This document shows, piece by piece, positions 47,701 to 50,700 of a stretch of DNA of 64,000 bases; the first letter of the stretch is position 1, and each line of letters opens with the position of its first letter. Source of the DNA: Escherichia coli (lineage in GTDB: Bacteria > Pseudomonadota > Gammaproteobacteria > Enterobacterales > Enterobacteriaceae); the NCBI RefSeq assembly GCF_003790525.1, contig NZ_CP033635.1. One strand, 5' to 3'. Position numbers: made by a program.

Positions 47701-50700
47701 GATGAGCCACATGGACGTAACTCAGTGCAGGCAGCGTATATCCATAAAGCGGAGCATCTGGATGAGCGCAAGCTGATGCTGCAGTGGTGGGCAGATTTTC
47801 TGGATGCCAATCGGGAGAGAGCGATTACGCCGTTTGACTATGCGAAGATCAATCGGGGTAATGGAGAGTGAGTTGTTTATCAAATTTGCTAAATTAAAAC
47901 TATTTAACCTGCCTTATAGGGACGATTGGTTGGCTATTTCACTAGAAGTAATGTAGATAACAGAAGCCTGGTCTATCATTTTGATAGACCAGGTCAAGAT
48001 TAATAGAATTAGATTTTTTATTGGCGTGTTGAATAAATTTTAAAGGGTCCTAATAAGTTTGTAGGATTTAATTGAAAACAGTAAGGGAAATACTTAACAT
48101 ATAACTTCACGCTCTTCTATTAAATCAAAAACATTATTCGTAGTGTAATGTTCCCATCTTTTATTATATCCCTCTTTCGACAAAATTGAGACATCATCCG
48201 TTCCTTCTCCCTCATCTAAACCATGCATGAAACAAACTCCAGCAACATTAGAAAGAACATATCTATTATGCAGACATTCATTACCCTCGCGAGAAGTTAA
48301 AGACTTAAATGTTACTGATAATTTAAAATCGTCTGGAAAGACAAGGTTTTCGCGGTTCAACTTATTAGCCAAATAATTCACCGTTGGGGAGTTTTCTTTA
48401 CTCCCATCAAATATAACATCTATCTTTAAATTTTTTTTATAAGAGTTATTAGCACTAACGCTAAGTAATGAAATAAATACATTCCACCATCTTTGTTTGT
48501 CACTAAAGTATGGGTCAACTATAATAATATGCTCTGATGTTTTTAATAAGCGTGAGATTATAGATATCATATCCTCAGCAATTCTAGCAACAATTTTTTG
48601 CCGAGCATAATTTAACCCAAAGAAATCATCTATATTAGTTACATCAAGGTTATCACAAGGAGTAGAACTCACTACATGATCAAATTGTTCAATTCGATTT
48701 ACAGCAGAGATGTTATCTGACCATGACATGTCACCAACATAATCATAAACCCTACTAACCTTATTATTTTTCAAAAAAATAATAAGGTCCTCTAATCGTT
48801 TTTTTTGAAGTTCACTATGATTAGCATTTAATAGCCCAAGCAATTGTTTTTTATTTCTCTTCAGCTTTGGTAATTCACTATAGAGAAAGTTACCGCCCGT
48901 AGAAAATCCTTTTATGAAGTCACGATAATTTCTCCGATCAATTGCGATCTCAAACAAAGCCTCTGGTGAAATGGCGCATTCGTAGAACATTAAAAAAGCT
49001 CTCCCCTTCTTTCTTCGAAGAAACCTTTGGGCCATTTTTGTTTGAAGTCACCATCATCAGTAATATCTATTTTCCTAGTAACAGTCGAACCATTATTATC
49101 CTCGAAAACGATCACTGATATAAAATCAGGTTTTACTGGGTAATTTGATTCAGGTAATTCATTGTCCGTTGTTTGTCTAATTCTTTTTAAAATTCGAAGC
49201 AAAATGTGCTCACTATGTGTTTCGACTAAAAACATAGGTCTTTTAACATCAAGGGGATATTGGGTAAACAGATCACCTACAGCGAGTTGTAAAGCGGGAT
49301 GAATATGTAGCTCAGGCTGCTCTATAGCAATTAATCCATCCTGAACTATATTGGCTGCAATAATAAGAGGTGCTATCTGAGTTAATCCGACACCGACTTG
49401 ATTTGGAAATAACATTTGGCTTGAATCTATTTTACAGAAGTAAACATTATCTTTCAGACCTAAAAGTTGAGGGGAGGTTTTTATATCAAATTCTCCTCCA
49501 CTAAATATATTATAATTAGTGTTTAGTTTATCTCTATTGGAAAACCAATCACTTACTTTTTTAATCAAATCACTATCATTTTGTTGAGATAAACACAGCT
49601 TATCCCATGCTGATGTACCATCAAACCATCCATTTTGTTCTGGATAAGGATTTGGCGTAAATGAAGAATCAGGTATAATTCTTAACGGTCCAATAGATAC
49701 GCTAGCCTTTAAATAATTATTTAATTTATCTAACGGAGAAGTAAAAACTTGCGTTAGCACTCTGGTGATTATATCTCGATTAAAATACTCAACTGGCTCG
49801 GATATATCAAAAACTTTCAAATTTGTATCAACAGTTCTTCCCAGTTGAGGTAACGCACCAATTTTCGTCTTTAAAAAAACAGGAAACATTGGTTTTTCTT
49901 TATCTTCTTCAAATATATAATCAACAGTTTTTACTCGCTCTGTTGCACCACTTTTATTACGTTCTAAGCCAGGAATTAAGTCATTTAAAGATATTTCAAA
50001 TTCACTGGCAATCGTATCTAATCCTTCCTTATCAATAGATTCAAGCCATAAATTATAATCAATAGGAAGAAGCAACGGATGAGTAAAGTTCAATCTATTT
50101 ACTAAAGATGATTTAGTATACTCATCATTACTTAGCTCTCCAATAAATTCATTATTTATAGAAACAGCATAGTTCTTTATATATGCTGCTCTGTGCAATT
50201 GTGACCATGCGATTTTAAACTCTACATAAACCTTTTCAGTTTCATCTGCAATGTCTTTCATTTTTATAAAATGAATATCGAAAATATCACCAAGTTCTTC
50301 TAAATATGTTTTATATTCTACACCTATTGTTTGTTCAGGATCGAAACCGATACCAATAGTAATTACATTATTCAGATCCCCATTATGGACTAGAGATCTA
50401 AATCCATCTATGCGCCTGTTCCCCATAGCTTCTAAATATATAGGATCACACTGCTCACGGTCTAATATTTGTTGAAGATAAAATAATGCAATTAAAATAG
50501 TAGTCTTGCCCGCGCTGTTTGGCCCCAATAGTAATGTTACAGGTGCAAAATCAATTTCCTGCCGCTCTCTAACAGATCTGAAATTTTCAAGTACAAGTTT
50601 AGTTAATTTCATAATGAACCTTACATGAAATATTTATTCGATAGGTTTGATGCTAAAAGTTGAAGTTGCATTGCGCTTTTATCATAAATGCTTAGTCCTT

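What the first reader, a model, noticed from the sequence alone, without database searches (positions are those of the whole stretch)
48094..50612. ABC-type ATPase plus coupled unknown partner appended to a Type I R-M operon
The ATPase gene starts 9 nt after the hsdS stop, and its own stop overlaps the start of a 298-313-aa gene (TAATG), giving a five-gene co-directional unit hsdR-hsdM-hsdS-ATPase-partner. The ATPase has the GPNSAGKTT, EQPELHIHP and ETHSE signatures of the OLD/AbiL/PARIS/Septu class. The partner has no HNH or Toprim motif that I can see, so it may be an RloB/AbiLii-like protein or something new. This two-gene block is the most AT-rich DNA in the window.
Basis: partly seen in the sequence, partly recalled or inferred. 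Interest (0 to 1): 0.7.

Follow-up and report, generated by a model that had tools for sequence, protein, structure and literature searches.

The report
Menshen-like ATPase–nuclease pair behind hsdS
Two tightly coupled genes at the end of an E. coli Type I restriction operon encode an ABC ATPase and a previously unnamed PIN-like/phospholipase-D-like protein; they look like the transducer and effector of the Menshen anti-phage system without its sensor, and the same pair follows restriction operons in many bacterial phyla.

Summary
On the minus strand hsdR, hsdM, hsdS, a 540-aa ATPase (48990-50612) and a 298-aa partner (48094-48990) are co-directional. There are 8 nt between hsdS and the ATPase, and a TAATG overlap between the ATPase and the partner.

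The ATPase is an NsnB-like ABC ATPase. It has GxG in place of the signature motif, Walker B E-Q instead of D-E, and a DUF3696-type tail.

The partner has no Pfam or PADLOC family. It belongs to a family of about 1000 clusters. A pLDDT-97 model shows PLD-superfamily and PIN-domain matches. I read this as an N-terminal catalytically dead PIN-like domain plus a C-terminal PLD-like domain with an invariant H-N-R motif. That is the architecture described for Menshen NsnC (inPIN + PB-PLD1). It is not RloB, Toprim or HNH.

No NsnA sensor gene accompanies the pair, here or in 55 other loci. Instead, 32 of 47 informative loci have Type I hsd genes upstream. At least 27 of 47 carry an RtcR-like CARF/sigma-54 activator, which E. 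coli lacks.

In E. coli the slot after hsdS is a swappable cargo site.

Verdict: an untested, NsnA-less Menshen-like defence module. It is a new variant of a known kind. The mechanism is inferred, not shown.

The parts
53458..56874 (-). hsdR, Type I restriction subunit (about 1137 aa; RefSeq starts at the ATG at 56871)
   Evidence: ORF. NCBIfam PRK11448 1.6e-99 and EcoAI/FtnUII-family R subunit 3e-68. RefSeq product name 'DEAD/DEAH box helicase family protein'.
53426..53445 (-). Terminator-like GC-rich hairpin between hsdR and hsdM
   Evidence: Consensus scan, 8-bp stem with 6 GC pairs followed by a T-run. This is a pattern match only; function was not shown.
51760..53394 (-). hsdM, Type I methyltransferase subunit (544 aa); its stop overlaps the hsdS start
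   Evidence: ORF. NCBIfam hsdM 2.4e-22 and MAD2 5.5e-35. RefSeq annotation.
50621..51763 (-). hsdS, specificity subunit (380 aa); low GC (33.9%)
   Evidence: ORF. NCBIfam type I S subunit 5e-32. GC content.
48990..50612 (-). NsnB-like ABC ATPase (540 aa). Walker A at 50502-50525. GxG at residues 407-409. Walker B E431-Q432 (EQPELHIHP) at 49296-49322. ETHSEH at 49206-49223. DUF3696-type C-terminal tail at 48993-49052. Hypervariable insert at residues about 77-300.
   Evidence: Translation. PADLOC PDC-M55A 1.4e-40 and NsnB 3.2e-37. Pfam AAA_15, AAA_23, AAA_21 and weak DUF3696. Family motif conservation. RefSeq WP_000778955.1 'AAA family ATPase'.
48586..48990 (-). Partner, N-terminal PIN-like domain (residues 1-135). 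No conserved PIN acidic tetrad, so presumed catalytically inactive and acting as an adaptor.
48097..48579 (-). Partner, C-terminal PLD-like domain (residues 138-298). D159 at 48514-48516. H241-N242-R243 at 48262-48270.
47967..47993 (-). Terminator-like hairpin about 100 nt after the partner stop codon; probable end of the transcription unit
   Evidence: 12-bp stem CCTGGTCTATCA/TGATAGACCAGG. This is a pattern match only.

Best explanation
The two genes form a self-contained, translationally coupled anti-phage module. It is homologous to the transducer and effector parts of the Menshen system. The 540-aa protein is an NsnB-like ABC ATPase. The 298-aa protein is an NsnC-like effector built from a catalytically dead PIN-like adaptor domain and a PLD-like (H-x-R) phosphodiesterase domain. 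In E. coli the pair is carried as swappable cargo in the slot behind hsdS and is probably co-transcribed with hsdM-hsdS.

Proposed mechanism, inferred by analogy with the NsnB4-NsnC2, Septu and PARIS models. ATPase dimers or tetramers hold the effector through their conserved DUF3696 tails, which clamp the PIN-like domain. The hypervariable insert of the ATPase (residues about 77-300) senses a phage cue. ATP binding toggles the complex. The conserved Walker B E-Q suggests slow or no hydrolysis, so ATP would act as a switch rather than a fuel. The PLD-like domain is then released or unlocked and degrades nucleic acid. This stops phage that escape restriction, possibly at the cost of the cell.

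Shown here: gene anatomy, family membership of the ATPase, the fold of the partner, strict pairing, and synteny. Inferred: complex formation, the trigger, nuclease activity, and the defence phenotype.
For: Coupling: the TAATG overlap here, and the ATPase lies directly upstream of the partner in 55 of 55 loci that have the sequence. Further instances appear.

ATPase: NsnB HMM 3e-37. The family-wide motifs GxGxSQxxP, E-Q-P-E-x-H-x-HP and ETHSEH are conserved, as are an invariant R311 and a WPxGFFxER tail. These match the NsnB peculiarities reported in PMC12065111: GxG replacing SGG, a non-DE Walker B, Arg replacing the Q motif, and a DUF3696 tail.

Purifying selection: dN/dS is 0.19 for both genes.

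Defence context: the pair sits in a tRNA-Phe island next to other defence candidates. Downstream genes in other loci are defence-like.

Autonomy: pairs occur without hsd genes and in tandem copies. In E. coli the same hsdRM backbone carries other cargo in the same slot.

Against: No experiment exists for this pair or for any member of the partner family. PADLOC 2.0 has no model for the partner, and the literature searches found no mention of it.

The canonical Menshen sensor NsnA is absent, so it is unknown whether NsnB/NsnC-like proteins can work without it.

The PLD motif is H-x-R, not H-x-K. The closest small homologue, MIT_C, is not a known enzyme, so catalytic activity is unproven. A single PLD domain would need to dimerise for canonical PLD chemistry.

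The E. coli clade deviates from the family consensus at some conserved positions: partner F35 instead of R and N248 instead of D, and ATPase D69, K394 and Q405.

The strong, phylum-spanning linkage to one Type I subfamily argues for more than passive hitch-hiking.
Confidence: 0.55

Rival explanations
1. The pair is an R-M guardian, analogous to PrrC. It is not autonomous. The Type I R-M complex takes the place of the missing NsnA DNA sensor: the ATPase docks on HsdM/HsdS/HsdR, stays latent while restriction works, and fires the PLD effector when a phage anti-restriction protein (Ocr, ArdA or Stp type) disables the enzyme.
For: Type I hsd genes lie upstream on the same strand in 32 of 47 informative loci. 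In 18 of these hsdS is immediately adjacent, often with overlapping stop and start codons (gaps of -1, -4 or -7). The linked hsd systems mostly belong to one subfamily that is more conserved than the pair itself: HsdM is 58-67% identical across phyla, against 26-34% for the partner. The arrangement persists at about 22% partner identity. Precedents are PrrC/EcoprrI and PARIS (PMC12707154). NsnA is missing exactly where hsdS sits.
Against: About a third of pairs have no hsd genes nearby. They sit directly after an RtcR-like gene or elsewhere, sometimes as two or three tandem copies. hsd-linked and hsd-free pairs are interspersed on the partner tree. In E. coli the slot holds unrelated cargo on a 96-100% identical hsdRM backbone. 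hsdS is highly variable next to a constant pair (59% against 88-89% identity).
Confidence: 0.25
2. The PLD-like domain is not a nuclease. It could act on or bind phospholipids or membranes, as PLD, phosphatidylserine synthase or the MIT_C domain of MITD1 do. Alternatively it could be a non-catalytic binding module, so the output would be membrane damage or signalling rather than nucleic-acid cleavage.
Against: Comparably strong matches are to PLD-family nucleases: NucT 11.2, SauUSI 10.9, Nuc 9.9, Zucchini 9.5, NgoAVII 8.8 and BfiI 8.4. H241, R243 and D159 are conserved at 91-100%, as expected for an active site. The context is nucleic-acid-directed: R-M genes, an ABC ATPase of the SMC/OLD class, and NsnC effectors that are mostly nucleases. 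No transmembrane or lipid-binding features were seen.
Confidence: 0.1
3. The pair is not a defence module. It is either an addiction (toxin-antitoxin-like) cassette that stabilises the hsd island, or an accessory that serves the R-M enzyme, for example by processing restriction breaks or alleviating restriction.
For: AAA_21-type ATPases occur in TA-like modules (Pfam label). The pair sits in a mobile, low-GC cassette bounded by integrase and transposase remnants. Linkage to R-M genes is tight.
Against: Pairs exist without any R-M genes. Where a regulator is present it is a CARF/sigma-54 activator, which fits an induced response rather than constitutive addiction. The closest relatives are experimentally validated defence systems. 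The partner was not found in 50,697 phage records and was found in only 2 of 72,556 plasmid records, so it is rare on the elements that typically rely on addiction.
Confidence: 0.07

Closest known systems
Menshen (NsnA-NsnB-NsnC; Millman et al. 2022; dissected in PMC12065111)
   Same: The ATPase matches the PADLOC NsnB model (3e-37). It shares the unusual NsnB features: GxG instead of SGG, a non-DE Walker B, a conserved Arg where the Q motif is expected, and a DUF3696 tail. The partner has the NsnC architecture, an inactive PIN-like N-domain plus a nuclease-type C-domain. Its C-domain resembles the PB-PLD1/MIT_C-like class.
   Different: No NsnA (ParB-DUF262 + ParBDB) gene is present, here or next to any of 55 pairs. 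Walker B is E-Q rather than E-N. The motif is H-N-R rather than H-D-R. The upstream neighbour is hsdS or an RtcR-like activator. At sequence level the partner gives only a 0.003 hit to one NsnC model.
PrrC / EcoprrI (an anticodon nuclease embedded in a Type I R-M locus)
   Same: An ABC-type ATPase-based effector is encoded inside or next to a Type I hsd operon in the same orientation. It is a candidate back-up for when restriction is inhibited.
   Different: PrrC is a single polypeptide with its own anticodon-nuclease domain, and it lies between the hsd genes. Here there are two proteins, the effector is PIN-like plus PLD-like, the position is after hsdS, and no trigger is known.
AbiL/RloAB, MADS Mad3-Mad4, PARIS (AriAB), Septu (PtuAB), HEC-01 and HEC-03: ABC ATPase plus separate effector pairs
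   Same: All use the same two-gene logic, an OLD-class ABC ATPase followed by a small effector gene, and they are often embedded in R-M, BREX or Hma loci. HEC-03 also pairs an ABC ATPase with a PIN protein.
   Different: Their effectors are Toprim (RloB, DUF4276, AriB), HNH (PtuB) or an active VapC-like PIN (HEC-03). Here the PIN-like domain lacks catalytic residues and the presumed catalytic domain is PLD-like. ATPase HMM scores for these families are much weaker than for NsnB.
RtcR-homologue-led defence 'superoperons' (Makarova 2014, PMC4012209; CoCoNuT paper, PMC11090510)
   Same: In other phyla the pair, with or without hsdRMS, follows a CARF-AAA+-HTH RtcR-like activator and a sigma-54 -24/-12 promoter. 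This matches the reported association of RtcR homologues with R-M systems.
   Different: Those papers do not describe this ATPase/PIN-PLD pair. The E. coli locus has neither the activator nor a sigma-54 promoter.
PADLOC candidates PDC-M55 and PDC-M01
   Same: PDC-M55A is the best HMM hit for the ATPase (1.4e-40). PDC-M01, a Septu-like pair, occupies the identical slot after hsdS on the same hsdRM backbone in ST131 and other E. coli.
   Different: PDC-M55 is a three-gene cassette, and the partner matches none of its other components. The PDC-M01 proteins are unrelated to this pair.

Membership tests
Menshen (NsnABC) | An NsnA gene (ParB-DUF262 + ParBDB) immediately upstream of the ATPase gene | tested here: not met
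   hsdS lies 8 nt upstream. RefSeq annotation shows no DUF262 protein from window position 33900 to the end of the window. A DGxQR motif screen of the window and of all surveyed loci found no candidate next to any of 55 pairs. Pfam-annotated contexts show none.
Menshen (NsnABC) | NsnB: an OLD-class ABC ATPase with a DUF3696 C-terminal helix, GxG in place of SGG, and a non-canonical Walker B | tested here: met
   PADLOC NsnB 3.2e-37. Pfam AAA_15 plus DUF3696 (i-E 0.0077 here; recorded for homologues). G407-x-G409, E431-Q432 and the WPxGFFxER tail are conserved at 92-100%.
Menshen (NsnABC) | NsnC: an N-terminal inactive PIN-like domain plus a C-terminal effector (nuclease) domain | tested here: met
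Menshen (NsnABC) | Experimentally shown phage protection | not testable with these tools
   No experiment on this pair was found in the searched literature.
PB-PLD1 / MIT_C-like PLD domain | PLD fold with a conserved acidic residue after beta-2 and an H-D-R motif before beta-5 | tested here: inconclusive
Canonical HKD phospholipase D nucleases (Nuc, BfiI, NucT) | The H-x-K-x4-D motif | tested here: not met
   The family consensus is L-H-N-R-Y-x-L-T-D, that is H-x-R-x4-D, with Arg invariant in place of Lys. The E. coli protein has N248 in place of the final D.
   No Pfam hit for the protein or for 100 family members. No PADLOC AbiLii hit. The fold searches returned PLD and PIN matches and no Toprim match in the lists.
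PARIS / Septu / OLD / Gabija | The ATPase is coupled or fused to a Toprim (AriB, OLD, GajA) or HNH (PtuB) nuclease | tested here: not met
   The ATPase gives only partial or weak hits: AriA 5.5e-22, and GajA, PtuA and Old through the N-terminal P-loop region only. The partner has no Toprim or HNH signature.
PADLOC PDC-M55 | All three cassette components present (FAM_00005>>FAM_02935>>FAM_00004) | tested here: not met
   Only component A matches. The partner has no PDC-M55 hit at E<=1.
Type I restriction-modification operon | Adjacent, co-directional HsdR, HsdM and HsdS genes | tested here: met
   NCBIfam hits for all three subunits. ORF layout with overlapping hsdM and hsdS. RefSeq names.
RtcR-like sigma-54-controlled defence operon | A CARF-AAA+-HTH activator gene and a -24/-12 promoter upstream | tested here: not met
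   The feature is absent from the window: no TGGCAC-N5-TTGCW match with up to 1 mismatch, and no such gene in the RefSeq annotation. It is met in at least 27 of 47 related loci elsewhere.

The most novel reading that the evidence does not exclude
The ancestral unit is a six-gene, signal-inducible immune operon: RtcR-like CARF/sigma-54 activator, hsdR, hsdM, hsdS, NsnB-like ATPase, and PIN-PLD effector. In it the Type I restriction complex replaces the ParB-type NsnA as the DNA sensor of a Menshen-like abortive back-up. The whole two-layer system would be switched on by an RNA-damage or infection signal read by the CARF domain. E. coli would carry a regulator-less derivative. If this is right, it is a new, widespread class of R-M-coupled, inducible defence, and a new way of wiring an ABC-ATPase effector to restriction.
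Probability: 0.3. Interest if true: 0.8.

Novelty: new variant of a known kind. Interest (0 to 1): 0.6.

Why it matters
About 5% of complete E. coli genomes (274 of 5426) carry this pair, and relatives occur in at least ten bacterial phyla. Yet the partner has no name in Pfam, PADLOC, RefSeq or UniProt.

The pair sits after hsdS rather than between hsd genes. 'Guilt-by-embedding' screens would therefore miss it.

If the pair is active, it shows that the Menshen transducer-effector core can work without its ParB-type sensor. It also gives a genetically tractable E. coli example for asking how ABC-ATPase defence modules are wired to restriction enzymes. It would add a PLD-type (H-x-R) effector to the defence repertoire.

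The slot after hsdS in E. coli, with at least five alternative cargos on one hsdRM backbone, is a natural experiment in how R-M systems and back-up systems are combined.

The link to RtcR-like sigma-54 activators elsewhere suggests that some Type I R-M systems are inducible, which is unusual.

Tried and rejected
- A structure prediction from the shallow enterobacterial alignment (11 sequences) gave a useless model (pLDDT 47.7). It was replaced by a 100-sequence alignment (pLDDT 97.1).
- The word-indexed homologue search found only close enterobacterial relatives. The exhaustive HMMER search was needed to reveal the family.
- The 100-sequence alignment was too diverse for the locus scan, so a 17-sequence alignment was used. 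The survey was therefore seeded on one peptide pattern around the HNR motif and on one genome per species.
- RloB, Toprim, HNH and DUF4435 readings of the partner were rejected: no Pfam or PADLOC hits, and the fold searches returned PLD and PIN matches instead.
- Sequence searches of the PDB gave only marginal P-loop hits for the ATPase and nothing for the partner.
- A phage origin was rejected: no hit in 50,697 phage records. Plasmid carriage is rare, with 2 distant hits.
- I looked for NsnA with a DGxQR motif screen and Pfam-annotated contexts and found none adjacent.
- I looked for a sigma-54 promoter in the window and found none.
- Genes downstream of the pair in other loci are variable defence-like genes, not a conserved extra component.
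- The supplements of the Menshen paper are not held, and Krishnan et al. 2020 is not held. A direct comparison with PB-PLD1 sequences and a check of that ABC-ATPase census were therefore not possible.
- The sigma-70 promoter scan was at chance level and was not used.
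Full report
**1. The observation**

The window is E. coli chromosomal DNA. Region 47900-50700 is at least 99% identical in 272 of the 274 complete E. coli genomes (of 5426) that have a match. It lies in an island that also holds a tRNA-Phe gene at 28718-28793.

On the minus strand the ORFs are hsdR 53458-56874, hsdM 51760-53394, hsdS 50621-51763, a 540-aa ORF at 48990-50612, and a 298/313-aa ORF at 48094-48990/49035. NCBIfam confirms the three hsd genes.

The sequence shows 8 nt between the hsdS stop and the ATPase ATG. The ATPase stop and the partner start overlap as TAATG. 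All homologues begin at that ATG, so the partner is 298 aa.

The quoted motifs GPNSAGKTT, EQPELHIHP and ETHSE are present.

GC content is 33.0% (ATPase), 32.7% (partner) and 33.9% (hsdS), against 50.9% (hsdM) and 51.4% (hsdR). The AT-rich block is real but includes hsdS.

Both genes are under purifying selection: dN/dS is 0.19 for each against Enterobacter genomosp. O.

Terminator-like hairpins lie between hsdR and hsdM (53445-53426) and about 100 nt after the partner (47993-47967). This suggests, but does not prove, two transcription units: hsdR alone, and hsdM-hsdS-ATPase-partner.

**2. The ATPase**

Pfam gives split AAA_15 hits plus AAA_23, AAA_21 and SMC_N, and a weak DUF3696 hit at the extreme C-terminus.

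In PADLOC the best models are PDC-M55A (1.4e-40) and Menshen NsnB (3.2e-37). HEC-03B and AriA follow. GajA, PtuA, Old and AbiLi match only through the P-loop region. No solved structure is related beyond the P-loop.

An alignment of 54 ATPases that sit next to partner homologues shows these conserved elements:
- GxNSxGK(S/T), the Walker A motif.
- An invariant GPxR (R311).
- G407-x-G409-x-S-Q-x-x-P.
- Walker B hhhh-E431-Q432-P-E-x-H-x-H-P, with Q in 51 of the 55 aligned sequences.
- ETHSEH.
- A C-terminal G..F...WPxGFFxER..EL tail.

The segment from residue 77 to about 300 is hypervariable. Its mean top-residue frequency is 0.20-0.29, against about 0.65 in the catalytic half.

These are the peculiarities reported for NsnB: GxG instead of SGG, a non-DE Walker B, Arg instead of the Q motif, and a DUF3696 tail (PMC12065111).

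**3. The partner**

RefSeq calls it a hypothetical protein. It has no Pfam hit. Its only PADLOC hits are NsnC at 0.003 and mad2 at 0.009.

The word-indexed search found only enterobacterial relatives. An exhaustive profile search found 1007 50%-identity cluster representatives at E<=1e-3, and 371 at E<=1e-10. Nearly all are about 300 aa and match over their full length.

Across 100 diverse members R243 is invariant. H241 (98%), P160 (96%), D159 (91%), G257, W90, R80, P41 and P9 are nearly so. The consensus runs FVDPYF ... LHNRYxLTDxGGVxFGxGLDEG.

With this alignment AlphaFold2 gives a model with pLDDT 97.1 and pTM 0.92. The shallow alignment had failed.

Foldseek agrees, with PLD hits at probability 1.00 and PIN 1v8o at 0.98.

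From the secondary-structure layout and the aligned lengths I assign the PIN-like fold to residues 1-135 and the PLD-like fold to residues 138-298. This assignment is an inference.

The N-domain has no conserved acidic tetrad, so it is presumably inactive. The C-domain carries D159 after a strand and H-N-R just before a strand.

This is the architecture described for Menshen NsnC: an inactive PIN ('inPIN', compared to PDB 1V8O in that paper) plus an effector. One effector class there is PB-PLD1, with an acidic residue after beta-2, an HDR motif before beta-5, and best matches to MIT_C and NucT.

MIT_C is also the only Pfam family hit by more than one member of the partner family, though weakly (4 of 100 at E<=0.1). 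In AFDB50 all relatives listed (top 50) are unnamed or carry only generic automatic labels.

**4. Context elsewhere**

A scan of one genome per species returned 64 loci from many phyla. They include Gamma-, Beta- and Alphaproteobacteria, Desulfobacterota, Myxococcota, Planctomycetota, Acidobacteriota, Binatota, Gemmatimonadota, Latescibacterota, Hydrogenedentota and Spirochaetota.

I called ORFs with my own script and searched them with HMMs. The results were:
- The ATPase lies directly upstream of the partner in 55 of 55 loci that have the sequence. True gaps are -4 to +3 nt.
- Of the 47 loci with at least 1.3 kb upstream, 18 have hsdS immediately upstream on the same strand.
- 14 have hsd genes upstream with other genes in between.
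- 9 have an approximately 500-aa gene immediately upstream (7 co-directional, 2 divergent).
- 1 has that gene further upstream.
- 5 have neither hsd genes nor that gene upstream of the pair.

PADLOC identifies the approximately 500-aa gene as RtcR_PspF2, with CARF-AAA+-HTH architecture (E about 1e-190).

This RtcR-like gene is present in at least 27 of the 47 loci. The count is a lower bound because flanks were capped at 9 kb. The commonest layout is RtcR-like > hsdR > hsdM > hsdS > ATPase > partner.

Sigma-54 -24/-12 elements, including perfect TGGCAC-N5-TTGCT matches, lie between the activator gene and the next gene in 15 of the 24 junctions examined.

The linked hsd systems mostly belong to one subfamily. 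HsdM is 58-67% and HsdR 42-55% identical to the E. coli proteins. That is more conserved than the pair itself, where the ATPase is 31-44% and the partner 26-34% identical.

Contexts are interspersed on a partner NJ tree. Some loci carry two or three tandem pairs (L037, L028, L056).

Pfam-annotated contigs show the same picture, including at about 22% partner identity.

No ParB-DUF262 (NsnA) gene is adjacent to any pair. Genes downstream of the pair are variable and defence-like.

The association of RtcR homologues with R-M systems and with defence 'superoperons' is already in the literature (PMC4012209; PMC11090510). Those papers do not describe this pair.

The E. coli window has neither the activator nor a sigma-54 promoter.

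**5. E. coli population**

The hsdR-hsdM backbone occurs in 427 genomes at 95% identity or more. The slot after hsdS holds different cargo in different strains:
- This pair, in 274 genomes.
- An unrelated PDC-M01 (Septu-like) pair, in 65 genomes including ST131.
- A 1093-aa DEAD/DEAH helicase.
- Two hypothetical proteins of 582 and 88 aa.
- An IS3-truncated NsnB-like ATPase.

The variable block also includes hsdS, which is 31% identical between the two alleles compared. This matches the GC discontinuity.

The cassette is bounded by an integrase remnant (47687-47871) and a transposase remnant (57479-57993).

**6. Interpretation**

*Shown:* a real, conserved, translationally coupled two-gene unit. 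It consists of an NsnB-like ABC ATPase and a PIN-like plus PLD-like partner. NsnA is absent. The unit is strongly, but not obligatorily, linked to one Type I R-M subfamily and to RtcR-like sigma-54 activators. In E. coli it behaves as swappable cargo.

*Inferred:* the pair is an anti-phage module that works like the transducer-effector half of Menshen. By analogy with the AlphaFold3 NsnB4-NsnC2 models and with Septu and PARIS, the DUF3696 tails of an ATPase dimer would clamp the PIN-like domain. The variable insert would sense a cue. ATP binding would act as a switch, since the E-Q Walker B suggests poor hydrolysis. The PLD-like domain would then cleave nucleic acid.

The main rival is a PrrC-like guardian model in which the R-M complex replaces NsnA as sensor. 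The phylum-spanning synteny favours it. The hsd-free pairs, the tandem pairs and the E. coli cargo exchange count against it. The two models could both hold in different lineages.

Lesser rivals are a non-nuclease PLD-like domain and a non-defence (addiction or accessory) role.

**7. Novelty**

PADLOC 2.0 has no model for the partner. PDC-M55, the best ATPase hit, is a different three-gene cassette.

The embedding-based discovery approach looks for genes between system genes. This pair lies after hsdS, which plausibly explains why it was missed.

Literature searches for the accessions, the domain names and the gene combination found nothing specific.

I classify it as a new variant of a known kind: a Menshen-like ABC-ATPase-plus-effector defence module without the NsnA sensor.

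**8. Limits of the survey**

- It was seeded on one conserved peptide pattern.
- It uses home-made ORF calls.
- It is truncated at 9 kb from the match.
- No function was tested.

Noticed in passing
window 50621-51763 and the slot after hsdS; loci L072, L073, L075, L076: On one conserved hsdR-hsdM backbone (427 E. coli genomes), the hsdS allele and the cargo behind it vary as a block. The alternatives seen are this pair (274 genomes), a PDC-M01 Septu-like pair (65 genomes, including ST131), a 1093-aa DEAD/DEAH helicase, a 582-aa plus an 88-aa hypothetical protein, and an IS3-truncated ATPase.
   Followed up: partly
L015, L019, L022, L027, L033, L034, L039, L044-L047, L054, L065 and others (genome loci): An RtcR-like CARF-AAA+-HTH activator followed by a sigma-54 -24/-12 promoter (several perfect TGGCAC-N5-TTGCT matches) precedes hsdR-hsdM-hsdS-ATPase-partner, or the pair alone. 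This implies signal-inducible Type I R-M operons. The feature is absent from the E. coli window.
   Followed up: partly
L056 (1842-9774), L037 (3798-9948), L028 (7183-14600): Two or three ATPase-partner pairs occur in one locus behind or near a single RtcR-like gene (strictly tandem in L056 and L037; separated by an opposite-strand gene in L028). The copies are divergent and fall in different parts of the partner tree.
   Followed up: no
window 42664-46306 (minus strand): A three-gene block consists of a WYL-domain regulator (45410-46306), a PDC-M09A-like protein (44282-45361) and a PDC-M40B-like protein (42664-44235). RefSeq labels the last one 'ATP--cob(I)alamin adenosyltransferase'. The block is probably another uncharacterised defence candidate.
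   Followed up: partly
window 58293-64000: Beyond hsdR lie a MazG-like gene (58293-58559), an XRE/PD-Lambda-2_B-like regulator (59026-60108), a 314-aa unknown gene overlapping a thymidylate synthase gene (60111-62032), a frameshifted IS3, and a dGTPase-family gene starting at 63512. This nucleotide-metabolism-flavoured set could be further defence cargo.
   Followed up: no
window 28718-28793, 47687-47871, 57479-57993: A tRNA-Phe gene marks the probable integration site of the island. The hsd/pair cassette is itself bracketed by an integrase remnant and a transposase remnant, which suggests a nested mobile cassette.
   Followed up: no
window 53426-53445 (minus strand): A GC-rich hairpin with a T-run lies in the 63-nt gap between hsdR and hsdM. 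It may separate or attenuate transcription of the restriction subunit from the modification/specificity/ATPase/partner unit.
   Followed up: no
window 48094-50612 compared with the family consensus: The enterobacterial clade departs from otherwise conserved positions: partner F35 (R in 90%) and N248 (D in the consensus), and ATPase D69 (G 90%), K394 (D 83%) and Q405 (D 80%). Both genes are nevertheless under purifying selection, so this may reflect lineage-specific retuning.
   Followed up: no
L006 (8483-10561), L018 (1322-4992): Some loci carry a second NsnB-like, DUF3696-type ATPase followed by a different, non-homologous partner (342 aa or more in L006, 618 aa in L018). This hints at effector swapping on the same ATPase scaffold.
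   Followed up: no
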